In this document: positions 7,757 to 17,532 of the stretch, in pieces | Numbering within the stretch: position 1 is the first letter of the stretch | Layout: the number at the start of each line of letters is the position of its first letter | From: Nanobdellota archaeon | GTDB taxonomy: Archaea; Nanobdellota; Nanobdellia; SCGC-AAA011-G17; ARS1403 | Assembly: GCA_018831025.1 (NCBI GenBank) | Contig: JAHJRB010000059.1 | Span: 1 to 43,812 of the forward strand | Direction: 5' to 3' | DNA length: 43,812 bases | Made by a program: the position numbers and the translations under genes | The notes under the pieces: model-generated | What the model was told of the DNA's origin: nothing | The model's input: only the letters and a program-made list of their open reading frames with translations | Database searches by the model: none

Positions 7757-8665
7757 ATGAGAATTTTAGTTACTGGCGGAACAGGATTTATTGGGTCTAA
7801 CATTGTAAAATATTTATGTAAAGAAGACCATGAAGTTCTAATTACAGGTAATGATTCAGAGATAAAATTAACTGGTTTTAAAGGTAAGTATCTCCAACCT
7901 AGTTTTATTGGTCTAGACTGGGATGAGATTGGAAGGGTTGATATTGTTTTTCATCAAGCTGCAATTAATGATACTACTAATTTGGATAAGAAAGAGATGT
8001 TTAGGGCTAATGTAGAGTCTTCTAAAAAATTATTTAGACATGTTGTTGAAAATGGATGTAAAAGAATAGTTTATGCTACCTCTACTGCAATCTATGGCAA
8101 CTCTCCTGCCCCTTATAAGGAAAATGAAACTGTTTTGGATCCTCTTAATCCTTACGCTGAATCTAAAATAGAATTGGAAAAGTTTGCCAGTGAATTTAAT
8201 AAGGAATATCCTGAAGTTATTATTGTTGGGTTGAGATACTGTAATGTATATGGTCCTGGAGAAAATTCTAAAGGTAAGAGGGCTACTATGATTTATCAAT
8301 TGGCTCAACAGATGTTAAAAGAGAATCCTAAAATATTTAGGGATGGTGAGCAGAAAAGAGATTATATTTATGTTAAAGATGTTGTAAATGCAAATATCCT
8401 TGCTTCAAAAGCAAAGGAAAGTTGTGTTGTAAATTGTGGGTTTGGAAAGGTCGTTACATTTAACGAACTAATTAGAATAATAAATAGTATTTTGAGGGAA
8501 GAGAGAAAACCAATCTATATAGAGAACCCTTATGTTGGAAAATATCAAGATTATACTGAATGTGATATGAGTTTAGCTAAAGAAAAAATAGGATTTGTTC
8601 CTGAGTTTGATATTGAAAAAGGGATTAAGGATTATTATGAAAATGAGAATCTTGTAAGAAACTAA
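7757..8665 (+). CDS. hldD: ADP-L-glycero-D-manno-heptose 6-epimerase-like SDR (HldD/RfaD)
   Basis: 302 aa. VTGGTGFIGSN Rossmann motif, YAESK catalytic YxxxK, and LRYCNVYGPGENSKGKRATM and GKYQDYTECDM, which resemble E. coli HldD RYFNVYGPRE.HKG.MASV and GRYQAFTQADL (from memory). Neighbours are other heptose-pathway genes. Confidence 0.7.
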   Translation: MRILVTGGTGFIGSNIVKYLCKEDHEVLITGNDSEIKLTGFKGKYLQPSFIGLDWDEIGRVDIVFHQAAINDTTNLDKKEMFRANVESSKKLFRHVVENGCKRIVYATSTAIYGNSPAPYKENETVLDPLNPYAESKIELEKFASEFNKEYPEVIIVGLRYCNVYGPGENSKGKRATMIYQLAQQMLKENPKIFRDGEQKRDYIYVKDVVNANILASKAKESCVVNCGFGKVVTFNELIRIINSILREERKPIYIENPYVGKYQDYTECDMSLAKEKIGFVPEFDIEKGIKDYYENENLVRN

Positions 8666-9135
8666 TCTTTTGTAGAAGATAATTTTTCTATTAAATTTGT
8701 GGTTGATTTTCCTGGAATATCTTCCAAAAGTATTATTTTTCCTCCGTTTTCTTCGACTGTTTCTTTTTCTATACCCTTGAATCCTGATTTAGATTTTACA
8801 TGAAAATGGGGTTTTATTACTTTAAGTAATTCTCTTGGATCTAGTTCATCAAAAACTGTTACATAATCAATACATTCTAATGCGGCAAGCATCTCCGCCC
8901 TATCTTGTTGAGAGTTGATAGGTCTGTTAGGAGATTTATATTGTTTTATTGAAGAATCTGAGTTTAAACCAACAATTAAAATATCTCCTTGTTTTTTTGC
9001 TTGTTGTAAACTTTTAATATGGCCAATATGAATCAAATCAAATGATCCGTTGCTAGTGACTATCTTTTTCCCCTCTTCTTTTAAATTTTCCACAATACCT
9101 TTGATTTCTTCTCTGGTTTTAATTTTAGAATCCAT
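8662..9135 (-). CDS. hldC: heptose-1-phosphate nucleotidyltransferase (HldC / RfaE domain II-like cytidylyltransferase fold)
   Basis: 157 aa. The GSFDLIHIGHIKSLQQAK motif (GxFDxxHxGH) and its size match HldE domain II. Which nucleotide it uses (ADP, CDP or other) cannot be read from the sequence. Confidence 0.7.
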   Translation of the reverse strand: MDSKIKTREEIKGIVENLKEEGKKIVTSNGSFDLIHIGHIKSLQQAKKQGDILIVGLNSDSSIKQYKSPNRPINSQQDRAEMLAALECIDYVTVFDELDPRELLKVIKPHFHVKSKSGFKGIEKETVEENGGKIILLEDIPGKSTTNLIEKLSSTKD

Positions 9136-10156
9136 TTTTCAATTTATTAAAAAAATGAGGTTTTATTTTTCTTATACTCTCAACAACTATGAGTTGATTA
9201 GTATATCCATTCTTCTCTAGAATTTTTTTTCTATTTTTATAATAACCCCTTAATGTTTCTTTTTTATTTTCATAGCTTATAGGGGGATGATATTCAATAA
9301 AAATTTTATTTTTAATAAAAAAATCTATATCATTTCTTCCGACTTTTATATGACAATTAATACCTTCAATAGGCTTTTTAATAATCTTATTTTCAACTAA
9401 CAATTTACAGAATTCTTTTTCTTCTTTTGAATCAAATTTACAATCCATAAAAGTATAAGGGCTATTTTCTCTTCTTTTTTTGATCCAAGAAAGTGCTAAA
9501 TCTGGATAAATTTTATGACAATTTTTCCCGCCTTTACTAGATATTTTTAAGAATCTTCCTTCTTTTTTCATTTTTTCGATAGCTTTTTTTCCATTTCTTT
9601 TTCCCATTTCCTTAGCTAATTCTGGATGCAACTCATGCATTTTTTTGACACCTTTCATCTGCCACTCTTTAAATTTCCCTGTTTTCTTTAATCTTTTAAT
9701 ATTTCTTTTTCCAATTTCACTTGCTAAGTTTGGATGTCTTTCATGAGTAACTTTGCCTCCAATTTTACCAGCTTTACTACAACCAGAAATCAATGTTCCA
9801 TTTTTTCTTCTATTTTCTGCAGAAATTTTTCCTCCTATTTTTCCCATTTCACTAAAATCTTCTAAAGGTTTACACTTTCCTACCATTCTTTGGAACTCAA
9901 TAAAAGTCCCATTCCTCTTTCTTTTTTCCATTGTCCTTTTTCCATTTTCTTTAGCAATTTCTGGATATAATAATGCTGTTTTTTTGCCATTTGCTATTCT
10001 CATATCGCATAAGATATACCATTTAACAGATTTCTGATCATGTTTGTTAATTCCTTCTTTAATTTTCAATTTTTTAGATATCTGTCTAATAGATAGTCCT
10101 TTTTTGAATAACTCTGCTACTTTATTCCGGATTTTTCTATGTTCTCTTTTATTCAT
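9125..10156 (-). CDS. HTH / basic-repeat / Vsr(DUF559)-like nuclease-domain protein (homing-endonuclease-like)
   Basis: 343 aa. N-terminal HTH (KKGLSIRQISKKLKI). Four to five degenerate ~35-aa basic repeats (YPEIAKENGKRTMEKRKRNGTF / HPNLASEIGKRNIKRLKKTGKF / HPELAKEMGKRNGKKAIEKMKKEGRF / YPDLALSW...). C-terminal SKEEKEFCKLLVEN...NDIDFFIKNKIFIEYH is reminiscent of the Vsr/DUF559 PD-(D/E)xK core. It overlaps hldC by 11 nt. Confidence 0.5.
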   Translation of the reverse strand: MNKREHRKIRNKVAELFKKGLSIRQISKKLKIKEGINKHDQKSVKWYILCDMRIANGKKTALLYPEIAKENGKRTMEKRKRNGTFIEFQRMVGKCKPLEDFSEMGKIGGKISAENRRKNGTLISGCSKAGKIGGKVTHERHPNLASEIGKRNIKRLKKTGKFKEWQMKGVKKMHELHPELAKEMGKRNGKKAIEKMKKEGRFLKISSKGGKNCHKIYPDLALSWIKKRRENSPYTFMDCKFDSKEEKEFCKLLVENKIIKKPIEGINCHIKVGRNDIDFFIKNKIFIEYHPPISYENKKETLRGYYKNRKKILEKNGYTNQLIVVESIRKIKPHFFNKLKNGF

Positions 10157-16114: not shown

Positions 16115-16115
16115 A

Positions 16116-16490
16116 TTGAAAATAAGTAATAAAGAAGGAATTATTGTATTAGCTGTAGCATTTGCTTTAGTTATTTTGCTGTCTAATATTATGACAGGTT
16201 ATGTTTCTAAAAGTTATATTGACAAAGGAAGATATCTAATTGGAGGTGGAAATTCCCAATGTGATAAAGTAGGCGGAATGGCTTTAATTATTGGTGGACA
16301 AGAACAAGAAAAATATGGAAAGATGATTAAGGTTTATAGTGTTTCTGATGATGTAACATTAATTAGTGTAGATGGTGCAAAAAGAACTATGGAACCTGGA
16401 CATGAGAAGTATGTAGCAGGACTTTGGGTTACTGTTTATAGTACAGGCACAAAAGATGCTTGTTTGATTGTTAAGAATTGGGAAGGTTAA
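16116..16490 (+). CDS. small N-terminally anchored protein (paralog B, TTG start in track)
   Basis: 124 aa with the same architecture as paralog A and shared pattern (I/V)K(V/L)..(V/I)S(D/E)(D/N)...KR....GH..Y..G..VT...TK.A.L.V. It starts 2 nt after paralog A. Confidence 0.45.
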   Translation: MKISNKEGIIVLAVAFALVILLSNIMTGYVSKSYIDKGRYLIGGGNSQCDKVGGMALIIGGQEQEKYGKMIKVYSVSDDVTLISVDGAKRTMEPGHEKYVAGLWVTVYSTGTKDACLIVKNWEG

Positions 16491-17532
16491 GTTTACTTAT
16501 TTCTTCTAAAACTTTTTCAACAATTATGGATTTAACACATTCTAAATAATTTTCTTCGCTTAAAGGACATTTTGATTTCATACAAGCTATACAAACTTCA
16601 GAATTTTGAATTGCTATTGAATTCTTTGAATAAGGACTCCAAATTCTTTTATCTCCTGCAGAAAATAAAGCAACAACTGGAATGTTTAAAGCTGCTGCAA
16701 CATGCTGAGCTGAGGTATCTATGCAAAAAACAAAGTAGGCGTTTTTAATTAAAGAAAAAAATTCCTGCAAGGAAGTCTTTCCTGCTAGATTTATAGAATC
16801 TCCTTTCATATTTTTTTGGATATCTTCTATAAATGGAATATTTTCTTCCGAACCGGTGAAAATTATTTTTTTGTTATATTTTTTACTTAAAGAATCTGCT
16901 AATTCTGCGAAATTTTTTTTGGACCAAGTTGGATGTGTTTTTGATATTGGCGATATCACAATGTAATCTTTATAATTTGTTTTTGGATTTTTTAAATAAA
17001 GCTCTAAATGATTATCTGAGGAGGAAATATTTAAAGTTTTAATTACATCTAAGTTATCTTCTATCTTATGTTTTATTTTAAAAGTTGGAAATGTTTTTCT
17101 ATGTAAATAATATCCTTTTGGCTCTGTAAATCCAGATTTTCTAATTCCAATCCTATAAGAAGCTCTCTTCCTTAAAAAACTGCTAATAAATTTGTTTCCG
17201 GGATAAAGCAAAATTCCTAAATCAAAGTGACCGTTTATTTCTGTAATGTCTGTGTAAATTTTATATAGATTAGGATTGTTATAAAGAACCTCTTTCATTT
17301 CTTTTGGTACTAAGATTGAAATTTTTGCATAAGGATAATGCTGTTTTAATGCTCTAATTGTTGGTGTGTCTATAATTAAATCTCCTATAAACTTTAAATC
17401 TATGATTAAAATACTTTTAACATCTTTGGGAATAGATTTTAAAAAAGGATGTGTTAATCTAAAGAAACCATAATCTAAATACCAGATTAAAGACCTTGCA
17501 TAGTCCTCTATCTTAAATCTTAGTTTTTTCAT
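16471..17532 (-). CDS. family 9 glycosyltransferase (ADP-heptose-dependent heptosyltransferase-like)
   Basis: 353 aa. ILIIDLKFIGDLIIDTPTIRALKQHYPYAKISILV N-terminal signature and C-terminal ...IDTSAQHVAAALNIPVVALF are typical of GT9 (WaaC/WaaF/RfaF family). Confidence 0.8.
   Translation of the reverse strand: MKKLRFKIEDYARSLIWYLDYGFFRLTHPFLKSIPKDVKSILIIDLKFIGDLIIDTPTIRALKQHYPYAKISILVPKEMKEVLYNNPNLYKIYTDITEINGHFDLGILLYPGNKFISSFLRKRASYRIGIRKSGFTEPKGYYLHRKTFPTFKIKHKIEDNLDVIKTLNISSSDNHLELYLKNPKTNYKDYIVISPISKTHPTWSKKNFAELADSLSKKYNKKIIFTGSEENIPFIEDIQKNMKGDSINLAGKTSLQEFFSLIKNAYFVFCIDTSAQHVAAALNIPVVALFSAGDKRIWSPYSKNSIAIQNSEVCIACMKSKCPLSEENYLECVKSIIVEKVLEEISKLNLPNS

What the first reader, a model, noticed from the sequence alone, without database searches (positions are those of the whole stretch)
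7757..17532. Bacterial-type nucleotide-heptose biosynthesis plus GT9 heptosyltransferase island in an archaeal genome
What the sequence shows, within 10 kb:
- an HldD-like epimerase;
- an HldC-like nucleotidyltransferase;
- a textbook GmhB phosphatase (DxD plus CxH...CxC zinc site);
- two HldA/RfaE-I kinases;
- a GT9 enzyme (the family that transfers heptose from ADP-heptose in LPS core synthesis);
- GT2 and GT4 transferases and three small uncharacterised proteins.

Established knowledge: the pathway S7P -> heptose-7-P -> 1,7-bisP -> 1-P -> NDP-heptose -> L,D-epimer is best known from Gram-negative LPS inner core and some S-layer glycans.

Inference: this organism builds a heptose-containing surface glycan (S-layer, pilin or lipid-linked). 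The genes were probably acquired from bacteria. The acceptor of a GT9 enzyme in a cell without lipid A is unknown.
Basis: partly seen in the sequence, partly recalled or inferred. Interest (0 to 1): 0.7.

Follow-up and report, generated by a model that had tools for sequence, protein, structure and literature searches.

The report
Archaeal heptose-sugar locus with cupin isomerase
A tiny DPANN archaeon carries a complete-looking gene set for making and transferring the "bacterial" seven-carbon sugar heptose. The usual first enzyme is missing, and a small cupin domain fused to the kinase probably does its job, a swap also seen in some bacteria and ocean phages.

Summary
Window 7757-17532 encodes an HldD-like epimerase, an HldC-like nucleotidyltransferase, a GmhB phosphatase, two HldA-like kinases, and GT9, GT4 and GT2 transferases. 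The flanking genes are plainly archaeal, and the nearest relatives are Woesearchaeota/Nanoarchaeota MAGs.

- **No recent import.** The locus sits between SRP54 and Bud32 in several related Woesearchaeota species. Its GC matches the flanks, and its GT9 and kinase form their own archaeal clades. Any bacterial origin is old.
- **A missed domain.** The 435-aa kinase carries a C-terminal cupin of about 125 aa.

The cupin belongs to a large family. Members are fused to HldA, HldE, GmhB+HldC, an HddC-type transferase or GT9, or sit beside heptose genes, in DPANN archaea, CPR bacteria, Bdellovibrionota and cyanophages. Its closest characterised relatives are D-lyxose/D-mannose ketol-isomerases and small archaeal phosphomannose isomerases. 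Of 35 cupin-bearing phage records, 34 have no detectable SIS gene.

My best reading (about 0.6) is that the cupin is a non-orthologous sedoheptulose-7-P isomerase. Nucleotide-heptose enzymes in archaea were already reported in 2024. The acceptor of the GT9 enzyme remains unknown.

The parts
7757..8665 (+). HldD-like NDP-heptose 6-epimerase (SDR, 302 aa)
   Evidence: TIGR02197 237.9 bits, below the equivalog cutoff of 274.6; next best galE 108.8. GGTGFIG and YxxxK motifs are visible. 77-78% identical to genes at the same position in L011 and L014, and 59% to a Saccharibacteria gene in L041.
8662..9135 (-). HldC-like heptose-1-P nucleotidyltransferase (157 aa)
   Evidence: TIGR02199 158.3 bits (cutoff 181.5); glycerol-3-P cytidylyltransferase only 38.3 bits. 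HxGH and GKSTT motifs are visible. Position 5 of the (F/L)XXGXSTT motif is K, not R.
9125..10156 (-). 343-aa lysine-rich protein with three ~36-aa internal repeats, inserted between the kinase-cupin gene and hldC; probably not part of the pathway
   Evidence: No Pfam, NCBIfam, PHROG or PDB match. Repeats at 108-nt spacing. Absent from all syntenic relatives.
10710..11639 (-). HldA-type heptose-7-P kinase domain (aa 1-310 of the 435-aa fusion protein)
   Evidence: TIGR02198 343.2 bits (cutoff 345); ribokinase 89.6 bits. GGAAN and DVSGAGD motifs are visible.
10332..10709 (-). Cupin domain (aa 311-435 of the fusion); proposed sedoheptulose-7-P isomerase
   Evidence: Cupin_2 6.4e-10; Lyx_isomer 25.7 bits, above GA 20.8. 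Invariant H38/H40/E45/H79 plus K8, K25, K43 and R103 in 45 homologues. AF2 model pLDDT 95. Foldseek top hit is D-lyxose/D-mannose isomerase 7nzp. Fusion and neighbourhood census.
11623..12186 (-). GmhB heptose-1,7-bisphosphate 7-phosphatase (187 aa)
   Evidence: TIGR00213 182.9 bits (above 149.6); NF006506 182.6 bits (above 178). FLDRDG and CPHH...CNC motifs are visible.
12179..13162 (-). Second, divergent HldA-family kinase (327 aa)
   Evidence: TIGR02198 247.7 bits, below 345; next best family 70 bits. Only one close relative (64%), then 42% or less to thousands of HldA-family (PfkB) kinases; the few named ones are bacterial. No ortholog in the syntenic Woesearchaeota loci.
13219..14103 (-). 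GT2 glycosyltransferase (294 aa)
   Evidence: Glyco_tranf_2_3 and Glycos_transf_2. 45-53% identical genes in L010, L012, L014, L016 and L025.
14143..14508 (+). 121-aa protein of unknown function
   Evidence: Only sub-threshold DUF4254 (23.9 bits vs 27) and DUF6165 hits. No relative in the syntenic loci.
14493..15632 (-). GT4 glycosyltransferase (379 aa)
   Evidence: Glycos_transf_1 128.9 bits, Glyco_transf_4 89.5 bits. 69-74% identical in L010, L014 and L091.
15734..16114 (+). 126-aa protein with an N-terminal hydrophobic segment, unknown function
   Evidence: No family. No relative in related loci, and not significantly similar to the neighbouring 124-aa ORF.
16116..16490 (+). 124-aa protein with an N-terminal hydrophobic segment, unknown function
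   Evidence: No family. Specific to this window.
16471..17532 (-). GT9 glycosyltransferase (353 aa), putative heptosyltransferase with a non-LPS acceptor
   Evidence: PF01075 92.4 bits. All LPS HepI/II/III/RfaQ equivalogs below cutoff. Invariant G50-D51 and D272. Distinct clade at 38-74% identity, bacterial enzymes at 32% or less. PDB matches cover only the C-terminal donor domain.
3077..4527 (-).
   Evidence: Weak Anp1 and Glycos_transf_2 hits. 53-72% identical copies downstream of Bud32 in L010, L011, L014 and L016.

Best explanation
This is a vertically inherited glycan-biosynthesis locus of a Woesearchaeota-type DPANN archaeon. It encodes the beta-branch nucleotide-heptose pathway plus the transferases that use its product.

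Proposed flow:
1. Sedoheptulose-7-P is isomerised to D-glycero-D-manno-heptose-7-P. A SIS-type GmhA does not do this, because none is present. The metal-binding cupin domain fused to the C-terminus of the HldA kinase does it. This step is inferred.
2. The fused HldA domain phosphorylates C1. The role of the second, divergent HldA is unresolved.
3. GmhB removes the 7-phosphate.
4. The HldC-like enzyme makes the NDP-heptose, most likely ADP-heptose.
5. The HldD-like epimerase gives the L-glycero form.
6. The GT9 enzyme, with GT4 and GT2, transfers heptose to an acceptor that is not lipid A. The most likely acceptor is a lipid-linked oligosaccharide or a surface protein.

Shown here: gene content, family assignments, archaeal host, conserved synteny, and the tight evolutionary link between the cupin family and heptose genes. 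Inferred: the catalytic role of the cupin, the nucleotide used, and the acceptor.
For: **Pathway families.** Searches give the scores listed under the observation check.

**Archaeal host and synteny.**

**The cupin as a heptose-pathway enzyme.**
- HldA-cupin fusions occur in 8 Woesearchaeota/Nanoarchaeota species representatives and in 11 bacterial ones: Bdellovibrionota, CPR and a gammaproteobacterium.
- A GmhB-cupin-HldC tri-domain protein sits at the same locus in L016 and on the P0126 contig.
- Other family members are cupin-PfkB, PfkB-HldC-cupin, cupin-NTP_transferase and GT9-cupin-PfkB.
- Of 80 GTDB loci, 33 have the cupin within 3 kb of a heptose-type kinase, phosphatase or nucleotidyltransferase. 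A SIS gene is present in 1 of 80, and there it lies in a separate HddA-GmhA-GmhB-HddC operon.
- In the cyanophage loci examined (S-CAM1, P-TIM68), the cupin lies next to a PfkB kinase, an HldC-like transferase, a HAD phosphatase and SDR epimerases.
- 34 of 35 cupin-bearing phage records have no SIS homologue with three different GmhA queries.
- The exception, SynMITS9220M01, has two modules, one holding the cupin and the other the SIS gene.
- The cupin accompanies both PfkB/HldC-type and GHMP/NTP_transferase-type modules. That is what one expects for their shared first step.

**The cupin as an isomerase.**
- Lyx_isomer scores above the Pfam gathering cutoff.
- The family profile aligns nearly end to end with D-lyxose/D-mannose isomerase 7nzo (4.7e-8) and with 2y0o. 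They share the motifs NNExYCxK, CxxHxH, KxETF and EFSxQxDE.
- The Foldseek top hit is 7nzp (26% identity, 120 columns, rmsd 1.6). Thermococcus phosphomannose isomerases also rank high.
- Established chemistry: ketose to manno-configured aldose is the same reaction type for fructose-6-P/mannose-6-P and for S7P/heptose-7-P.
- Precedents: cupin PMI fused to a nucleotidyltransferase in ManC/AlgA (from memory), and a SIS-PfkB fusion, P0323.
Against: - There are no biochemical data.
- Only one contig of the genome is available, so a SIS GmhA could lie elsewhere.
- 47 of 80 cupin loci show no heptose gene nearby. The family may therefore have more than one substrate.
- Two genomes, L041 and phage SynMITS9220M01, carry both a SIS gene and the cupin.
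- Foldseek E-values are similar for many functionally different cupins, such as KdgF and dioxygenases.
- Four of the five pathway enzymes score just below the NCBIfam equivalog cutoffs.
- The window has no AglB, flippase or identified acceptor.
Confidence: 0.6

Rival explanations
1. The heptose pathway is as described, but the first step is done by an ordinary SIS-type GmhA encoded elsewhere in the genome. The cupin has another job in heptose metabolism, such as tailoring or epimerising a heptose phosphate or NDP-heptose, making a different C2 epimer, or binding a pathway metabolite for regulation.
For: - gmhA is often unlinked to the other heptose genes in bacteria (general knowledge).
- L041 and SynMITS9220M01 have both SIS and cupin genes.
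- Cupins are functionally diverse.
- 47 of 80 cupin loci are not next to heptose genes.
Against: - 34 of 35 cupin-bearing phage records have no detectable SIS gene.
- In the two genomes that have both, each heptose module contains exactly one of the two.
- The invariant His/His/Glu/His metal site argues for an enzyme, not a sensor.
- The nearest characterised relatives are aldose-ketose isomerases, not RmlC-type epimerases.
Confidence: 0.25
2. The locus works on a hexose rather than a heptose. The cupin would be a phosphomannose isomerase, the HldA-like kinase and GmhB-like phosphatase together would replace phosphomannomutase, and the product would be an NDP-mannose used by the transferases.
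For: - The cupin has weak MannoseP_isomer hits and resembles the small Thermococcus PMIs.
- Four enzymes score below their equivalog cutoffs.
Against: - All four downstream enzymes have heptose-specific models as by far their best match.
- An HldD-type 6-epimerase has no substrate in a hexose pathway (established chemistry).
- A GT9 enzyme is present, and GT9 is fused to the cupin and kinase in P0450.
Confidence: 0.07
3. The stretch is a recently transferred bacterial island or a bacterial mis-assembly.
For: - The families are best known from bacteria.
- HldD is 59% identical to a Saccharibacteria gene.
- The second kinase has no archaeal orthologs in the related loci.
Against: - The same contig was assembled independently twice.
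- Archaeal genes lie on both sides.
- The chromosomal position is conserved in several Woesearchaeota species.
- GC is uniform.
- The kinase-cupin fusions of archaea group together in a neighbour-joining tree, and the GT9 sits in a separate clade whose examined members are archaeal.
Confidence: 0.05

Closest known systems
Bacterial ADP-L-glycero-beta-D-manno-heptose pathway (GmhA, HldA+HldC or HldE, GmhB, HldD)
   Same: HldA-, GmhB-, HldC- and HldD-type proteins are all present as an operon-like cluster, with motifs intact.
   Different: There is no SIS-type GmhA. A cupin is fused to the kinase. There are two kinase paralogues. The host is an archaeon without lipid A.
NDP-heptose biosynthetic enzymes across kingdoms (Tang et al., Science 2024; summarised in PMC11573728 and PMC11461863)
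   Same: That work already showed functional heptose enzymes in archaea (Methanococcus maripaludis) and viruses. It describes mono-, di- and tri-domain (isomerase/kinase/transferase) forms.
   Different: Neither of the two summaries I read mentions a cupin domain. I could not read the original paper. Here the cupin occupies the isomerase position, including a PfkB-HldC-cupin tri-domain protein. The window's transferase has K, not R, at position 5 of the STT motif. The summaries call the role of heptose in archaea 'elusive', whereas this locus links the pathway to GT9/GT4/GT2.
D-lyxose/D-mannose ketol-isomerases (Pfam PF07385; PDB 7nzo/7nzp, 2y0o) and small archaeal phosphomannose isomerases (PDB 7zvy, 7zvm)
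   Same: Cupin fold, His/His/Glu/His metal site, and the shared motifs NNExYCxK, HxH, KxETF and EFSxQ. The reaction type is ketose to manno-configured aldose.
   Different: The domain is much shorter than lyxose isomerases (~117 vs ~175-200 aa), with only ~26% identity. It has its own invariant residues (K8, W10, R103). The proposed substrate is a phosphorylated C7 sugar. Activity is untested.
LPS heptosyltransferases WaaC/WaaF/WaaQ (GT9) and autotransporter heptosyltransferases (TibC/Aah)
   Same: A GT9 fold is predicted by HMM. The catalytic-type Asp in the 'IGD' motif and the second Asp in the 'D(T/S)' motif are conserved. The C-terminal donor-binding domain matches 3tov and WaaF 1psw.
   Different: It scores below every LPS equivalog cutoff. 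The N-terminal acceptor domain does not match the solved enzymes. An extra ~40-aa N-terminal extension is shared by the 20 nearest relatives aligned and absent from the six distant GT9 sequences aligned, four of which carry bacterial names. No TibC-type match was found. The host has no lipid A or Kdo.
GDP-D-glycero-alpha-D-manno-heptose pathway of S-layer and capsule glycans (GmhA, HddA, GmhB, HddC)
   Same: It also starts from S7P and feeds non-LPS surface glycans. The cupin family is found next to HddA- and HddC-type genes in phage SynMITS9220M01 and in L077.
   Different: The window uses PfkB-type kinases and an HldC-type transferase (the beta branch), not a GHMP kinase and an NTP_transferase.

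Membership tests
ADP-heptose pathway (beta branch) | SIS-type sedoheptulose-7-P isomerase GmhA | tested here: not met
   No SIS domain in any scanned ORF of the locus. tblastn with E. coli and Saccharibacteria GmhA found nothing in the source contig L001. 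The rest of the genome is not available.
ADP-heptose pathway (beta branch) | HldA / RfaE domain I heptose-7-P kinase | tested here: inconclusive
   TIGR02198 scores 343.2 bits (cutoff 345) for 10332-11639 and 247.7 bits for 12179-13162. Both are far above any other kinase family, and the pfkB motifs are intact. Formally they are just below, and clearly below, the equivalog cutoff respectively.
ADP-heptose pathway (beta branch) | GmhB heptose-1,7-bisphosphate phosphatase | tested here: met
   TIGR00213 182.9 bits (above 149.6); NF006506 182.6 bits (above 178). DxD and Zn-site Cys/His motifs are present.
ADP-heptose pathway (beta branch) | HldC / RfaE domain II heptose-1-P nucleotidyltransferase | tested here: inconclusive
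   TIGR02199 158.3 bits vs cutoff 181.5. It is the best family by 4x, and the HxGH and STT motifs are present.
ADP-heptose pathway (beta branch) | HldD ADP-heptose 6-epimerase | tested here: inconclusive
   TIGR02197 237.9 bits vs cutoff 274.6; GalE 108.8 bits.
Promiscuous (STTR5) heptose nucleotidyltransferases | Arg at position 5 of (F/L)XXGRSTT | tested here: not met
   The window protein reads DIPGKSTT, with Lys at that position (motif definition from PMC11573728).
Glycosyltransferase family 9 | Match to PF01075 above the gathering score, with conserved catalytic Asp residues | tested here: met
   92.4 bits vs 22. G50-D51 and D272 are invariant across archaeal and bacterial homologues.
LPS heptosyltransferase I/II/III (WaaC/WaaF/WaaQ) | Equivalog-level similarity, including the acceptor (lipid A-Kdo/core) binding domain | tested here: not met
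   TIGR02195 111.7 bits (below 134.6); TIGR02201 109.8 bits (below 170.2); TIGR02193 64.1 bits (below 185.3). PDB matches cover only residues ~200-350.
D-lyxose isomerase family (PF07385) | HMM match above the gathering score | tested here: met
   25.7 bits vs 20.8 for the fusion protein, matching only 44 residues. The family profile aligns nearly full length with 7nzo at 4.7e-8.
D-lyxose isomerase family (PF07385) | His/His/Glu/His metal site and the conserved Lys next to the Glu | tested here: met
   H38, H40, K43, E45 and H79 are invariant in 45 homologues and align with the corresponding motif of 7nzo and 2y0o.
D-lyxose isomerase family (PF07385) | Aldose-ketose isomerase activity | not testable with these tools
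   Needs an enzyme assay.
Archaeal N-glycosylation locus (Agl) | AglB/STT3 oligosaccharyltransferase and a flippase near the transferases | tested here: not met
   Neither is in the window. A more distant Woesearchaeota locus, L003, does have STT3 about 3.5 kb from its cupin-HldD-HldA-GmhB cluster.

The most novel reading that the evidence does not exclude
The ~117-aa cupin family is a previously unrecognised, non-orthologous sedoheptulose-7-P isomerase that replaces GmhA. The family has about 3,100 clusters at 50% identity with E <= 1e-10. It is currently annotated as 'cysteine dioxygenase', 'putative nucleotidyltransferase' or 'mannose-6-P isomerase-like'. The replacement would occur in DPANN archaea, CPR bacteria, Bdellovibrionota and T4-like cyanophages. 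The Woesearchaeota locus would use the resulting ADP-heptose, through a distinct archaeal GT9 clade, to build what would be, as far as I know, the first heptose-containing archaeal surface glycan to be described.
Probability: 0.5. Interest if true: 0.7.

Novelty: new variant of a known kind. Interest (0 to 1): 0.6.

Why it matters
- **Function of archaeal heptose.** Nucleotide-heptoses are building blocks of bacterial envelopes and potent innate-immune agonists sensed by ALPK1. Their enzymes were only recently recognised outside bacteria, and their role in archaea is called 'elusive' (PMC11573728). This locus ties the pathway to dedicated glycosyltransferases in a DPANN lineage whose surface presumably mediates attachment to host cells.
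- **Detecting heptose producers.** If the cupin is the missing isomerase, homology screens that require GmhA will under-count heptose producers among archaea, CPR bacteria, predatory bacteria and marine phages.
- **Annotation errors.** Several database annotations appear wrong. These include phrog_7851 'cysteine dioxygenase', phrog_1238 'phosphoheptose isomerase' (which in the two members examined is a HAD phosphatase), and the NCBI name 'HMP/PMP kinase' for the second kinase.
- **Testability.** The hypothesis can be tested directly with four or five recombinant proteins.

Tried and rejected
- tRNA and Rfam scans of the window found nothing.
- The 343-aa repeat protein has no match in Pfam, NCBIfam, PHROGs or PDB sequences. 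I suspected a homing-endonuclease-like insertion but could not support it.
- I thought the 126-aa and 124-aa proteins were paralogues. BLAST gives E = 0.21, and neither has relatives in the syntenic loci, so I dropped the idea.
- The sub-threshold DUF4254/DUF6165 hits of the 121-aa protein could not be followed up.
- I considered a TibC/Aah-type protein heptosyltransferase because of the C-terminal Cys cluster. The three Cys are equally invariant in the distant bacterial-type GT9 homologues aligned, and no BAHT structure matched, so the motif is not diagnostic.
- Cyanophage genes annotated 'phosphoheptose isomerase' next to the cupin at first looked like evidence against the isomerase idea. 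In the two phages examined (S-CAM1, P-TIM68) they are 107-112-aa HAD phosphatases with a DIDGT motif and no SIS domain.
- Cupin loci without heptose genes (TM6/Dependentiae, Planctomycetota, Pseudomonadota) gave no informative neighbours.
- Eight literature searches, five of which combined cupin, GmhA or cyanophage terms, found no description of this cupin in heptose synthesis.
- I could not test whether SIS genes are absent from the whole genomes of the archaeal MAGs.

Full report
**1.
Between 7757 and 17532 the window holds twelve intact ORFs, most of them overlapping or separated by a few bases.

| Coordinates | Assignment | Score |
|---|---|---|
| 7757-8665 (+) | ADP-glyceromanno-heptose 6-epimerase, TIGR02197 | 237.9 bits; GalE 108.8 |
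| 8662-9135 (-) | rfaE domain II | 158.3 bits; glycerol-3-P cytidylyltransferase 38.3 |
| 11623-12186 (-) | GmhB | 182.9 and 182.6 bits, above both curated cutoffs |
| 10332-11639 (-) | rfaE domain I | 343.2 bits; ribokinase 89.6 |
| 12179-13162 (-) | rfaE domain I | 247.7 bits; next best family (hexose kinase) 70.1 |
| 16471-17532 (-) | Pfam Glyco_transf_9 | 92.4 bits, cutoff 22 |
| 13219-14103 (-) | GT2 | - |
| 14493-15632 (-) | GT4 | - |

Four of the five pathway enzymes fall slightly or moderately below NCBIfam's strict equivalog cutoffs. In each case, however, the heptose model beats every other family by a factor of two to five. Catalytic motifs are visible in the translations: GGAAN and DVSGAGD in both kinases, HxGH and STT in the transferase, DxD and CxH...CxC in GmhB, and GxxGxxG and YxxxK in the epimerase.

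**2. The host is an archaeon of the Woesearchaeota/Nanoarchaeota (DPANN) type.**
- The same contig carries aRF1, ribosomal proteins S3Ae, S15/S13e, S19e and L31e, a histone, Bud32, SRP54/FtsY, FEN1, and intein-containing CDC48 and family-B DNA polymerase.
- The contig was assembled independently in two public data sets.
- The ten closest relatives of the kinase-cupin gene among 185,579 species-representative genomes are all Woesearchaeota/Nanoarchaeota-type archaeal MAGs, at 67-80% identity.
- GC is 0.27-0.31 through the locus and its flanks.

**3. It is not a recent island.**
The order is SRP54 - GT9 - (small ORFs) - GT4 - ... - GT2 - ... - kinase/cupin - GmhB - HldC - (HldD) - Bud32 - orf194 - orf204 - GT-like genes. 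This order recurs in L010, in L011 plus L091 (two contigs of one MAG), in L014, in L016 and on the contig of P0126.

- The GT9 protein has about 44 relatives at 38-74% identity. After these comes a sharp fall to 32% or less for enzymes named as bacterial LPS heptosyltransferases. The three relatives whose context or name I checked are archaeal.
- In a neighbour-joining tree the archaeal kinase-cupin proteins group together and are 38-45% identical to the bacterial ones. The tree has no bootstrap support and limited sampling.
- The families are overwhelmingly bacterial, so an ancient bacterial origin is plausible. The locus has nonetheless been inherited vertically within this archaeal clade.
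- Two elements look younger. HldD is 59% identical to a Saccharibacteria gene. The second kinase has one 64% relative and then only 42% or less to HldA-family kinases, the named ones bacterial, and it has no ortholog in the syntenic relatives.

**4.
No SIS-domain protein is encoded in the window. tblastn with E. coli GmhA finds nothing in the contig. A Saccharibacteria GmhA query also finds nothing.

Instead, the 435-aa kinase ends in a domain of about 125 residues. This domain matches Cupin_2 (6.4e-10), D-lyxose isomerase PF07385 (25.7 bits, gathering cutoff 20.8) and, weakly, the type II mannose-6-P isomerase domain.

**5. The cupin family belongs to heptose metabolism.**
A search with the domain alone returned 268 proteins, mostly stand-alone cupins of about 117 aa. 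A profile search of 1.84 billion cluster representatives gives 3,125 clusters at E <= 1e-10. An alignment of 45 members has 22 invariant positions. These include a His/His/Glu/His set typical of metal-binding cupins and four basic residues.

*Fusions*
- HldA-cupin fusions occur in eight archaeal and eleven bacterial species representatives. The bacteria are Bdellovibrionota, Parcubacteria, Daviesbacteria, Paceibacterota, a gammaproteobacterium and one unclassified MAG.
- L016 and the P0126 contig carry a GmhB-cupin-HldC tri-domain protein at the same chromosomal site.
- Other members are cupin-PfkB, PfkB-HldC-cupin, cupin-NTP_transferase and GT9-cupin-PfkB.

*Neighbourhoods*
- Stand-alone cupins lie next to HldA, GmhB and HldD in other Woesearchaeota (L003, about 3.5 kb from an STT3/AglB gene) and next to HldA, HldC, HldD and GT9 in a Saccharibacteria MAG.
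- Of the 80 GTDB loci, 33 have a heptose-type kinase, phosphatase or transferase within 3 kb of the cupin, and 23 have at least two kinds.

*Phages*
- In S-CAM1 and P-TIM68 the cupin lies between a PfkB kinase, an HldC-like transferase, SDR epimerases and a 107-112-aa protein. Annotated neighbours in the other cyanophage hits, such as S-SM2 and S-SSM7, point the same way.
- That small protein is annotated 'phosphoheptose isomerase' but is really a minimal HAD phosphatase, with a DIDGT motif and no SIS domain.

**6. Why I think the cupin is the isomerase.**
- **The vacant slot.** In these modules every other step has its enzyme, and the isomerase position is empty. A SIS gene occurs in 1 of the 80 loci, and there it belongs to a separate HddA-GmhA-GmhB-HddC operon.
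- **Phage genomes.** Thirty-four of the 35 cupin-bearing phage records show no SIS homologue with E. coli, Saccharibacteria or cyanophage GmhA queries. The exception, SynMITS9220M01, has two sugar modules. One is GHMP kinase - cupin - NTP_transferase - RmlD-like - GDP-mannose-dehydratase-like. The other is GHMP kinase - SIS - HAD/HldC - HldD-like. Each module thus has one isomerase candidate.
- **Both branches.** The cupin accompanies both the PfkB/HldC (beta) and GHMP/NTP_transferase (alpha) versions of the pathway. These versions share only the first step.
- **Nearest characterised relatives.** These are aldose-ketose isomerases that make manno-configured sugars. The family profile aligns almost end to end with the Thermofilum D-lyxose/D-mannose isomerase (4.7e-8) and with B. 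subtilis YdaE, sharing family-specific motifs. A confident model (pLDDT 95) has 7nzp as its top Foldseek hit, at 26% identity over 120 columns with rmsd 1.6. The small Thermococcus phosphomannose isomerases are also among the best matches.
- **Chemistry.** S7P to D-glycero-D-manno-heptose-7-P is the C7 analogue of fructose-6-P to mannose-6-P (established chemistry).
- **Precedents.** An isomerase fused to a later enzyme is known. SIS-PfkB fusions exist (P0323), tri-domain isomerase/kinase/transferase enzymes are described, and type II PMI is a cupin fused to a nucleotidyltransferase (my recollection of ManC/AlgA).

I put this assignment at about 0.6.

**7. Caveats.**
- Nothing here is biochemical.
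- I have only one contig of the genome.
- Foldseek scores for many unrelated cupins are nearly as good.
- 47 of 80 cupin loci have no heptose neighbour and gave no informative context.
- tblastn can miss divergent SIS proteins. The cyanophage SIS was missed by the E. coli query and found only with the second query.
- That marine Synechococcus hosts lack heptose in their LPS, which would make the phage argument stronger, is my recollection and was not tested.

**8. The transferases and the acceptor.**
- The GT9 protein keeps the Asp of the N-terminal 'IGD' motif and the second conserved Asp (D51, D272).
- It scores below all LPS heptosyltransferase equivalogs.
- It matches solved GT9 structures only through its C-terminal, donor-binding half.
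- It shares a conserved ~40-residue N-terminal extension with the 20 nearest relatives aligned. The six distant GT9 sequences in the alignment, four of them named as bacterial, lack it.
- These features fit a different acceptor, but they do not identify it.
- No AglB or flippase lies in the window. A related lineage has the cupin-heptose genes about 3.5 kb from STT3/AglB, which favours an N-glycan or lipid-linked route.
- The two small membrane-anchored proteins next to GT9 are specific to this genome. They cannot be called acceptors.

**9. Comparison with what is known, and verdict.**
Tang et al. (Science 2024) reported nucleotide-heptose enzymes in archaea. I read only two commentaries on that work, PMC11573728 and PMC11461863. 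Those state that the role of heptose in archaea is unknown. A heptose locus in an archaeon is therefore a new member of a known kind.

Three things go beyond that:
- the conserved linkage to a distinct archaeal GT9/GT4/GT2 set in Woesearchaeota;
- the absence of GmhA;
- the widespread cupin that probably replaces it.

Eight full-text searches found no description of this cupin. I rate the whole as a new variant of a known kind, with interest 0.6.

Noticed in passing
window 9125-10156 (-): A 343-aa lysine-rich protein with three ~36-aa repeats and a weak N-terminal HTH hit sits inside the heptose operon, between the kinase-cupin gene and hldC. It is absent from all syntenic relatives and has no match in any library. 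It may be a selfish or DNA-binding insertion.
   Followed up: partly
window 4594-5202 (+): An SLT lytic transglycosylase domain protein (82 bits) with an N-terminal hydrophobic segment is encoded in an archaeal genome. This is a peptidoglycan-cleaving fold in an organism without peptidoglycan, and could be relevant to interaction with bacterial neighbours.
   Followed up: no
window 29492-33436 (+), 34362-38279 (+), 25641-26438 (-): CDC48 (1314 aa) and family-B DNA polymerase (1305 aa) each appear to contain a LAGLIDADG-type intein. A free-standing LAGLIDADG-like ORF lies nearby. This is judged from the translations only.
   Followed up: no
L092 4688-5011 and L093 5348-5686 (cyanophages S-CAM1, P-TIM68): Proteins annotated 'phosphoheptose isomerase' (phrog_1238) are 107-112-aa HAD-type phosphatases with a DIDGT motif, a match to a polynucleotide-kinase phosphatase family, and no SIS domain. 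The annotation appears wrong. The neighbouring cupin is annotated 'cysteine dioxygenase' (phrog_7851) or 'putative nucleotidyltransferase'.
   Followed up: yes
L094 (Synechococcus phage SynMITS9220M01, record 154309-164001): One phage carries two separate heptose-like modules. One looks like a GDP-6-deoxyheptose pathway with the cupin, and the other has a SIS isomerase, a HAD-HldC fusion and an HldD-like epimerase.
   Followed up: partly
window 12179-13162 (-): NCBI names this protein 'bifunctional hydroxymethylpyrimidine kinase/phosphomethylpyrimidine kinase'. Its best family by far is the heptose-7-P kinase (247.7 vs 19.6 bits for HMP-P kinase).
   Followed up: yes
window 16471-17532 (-), first ~40 residues: The 20 nearest GT9 relatives aligned share an N-terminal extension (consensus DxxRxxxWxxDYxxF) that the six distant GT9 sequences aligned lack (four are named as bacterial). 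It may be a membrane-association or acceptor-recognition element.
   Followed up: partly
L090 (contig of P0141): A marine relative has two adjacent GT9 genes embedded among B12-radical-SAM enzymes, methyltransferases, several GT4 genes and a Wzx-like flippase. This points to a larger, modified glycan in that lineage.
   Followed up: no
L049, L067, L070, L080, L089: Phage-type cupin/kinase/transferase/HAD clusters, 37-61% identical to P-TIM68 genes, occur on contigs binned as Neomarinimicrobiota, Pelagibacter, 'Bifidobacterium breve', Thaumarchaeota and Euryarchaeota. Some of these may be phage contigs mis-binned into MAGs.
   Followed up: no
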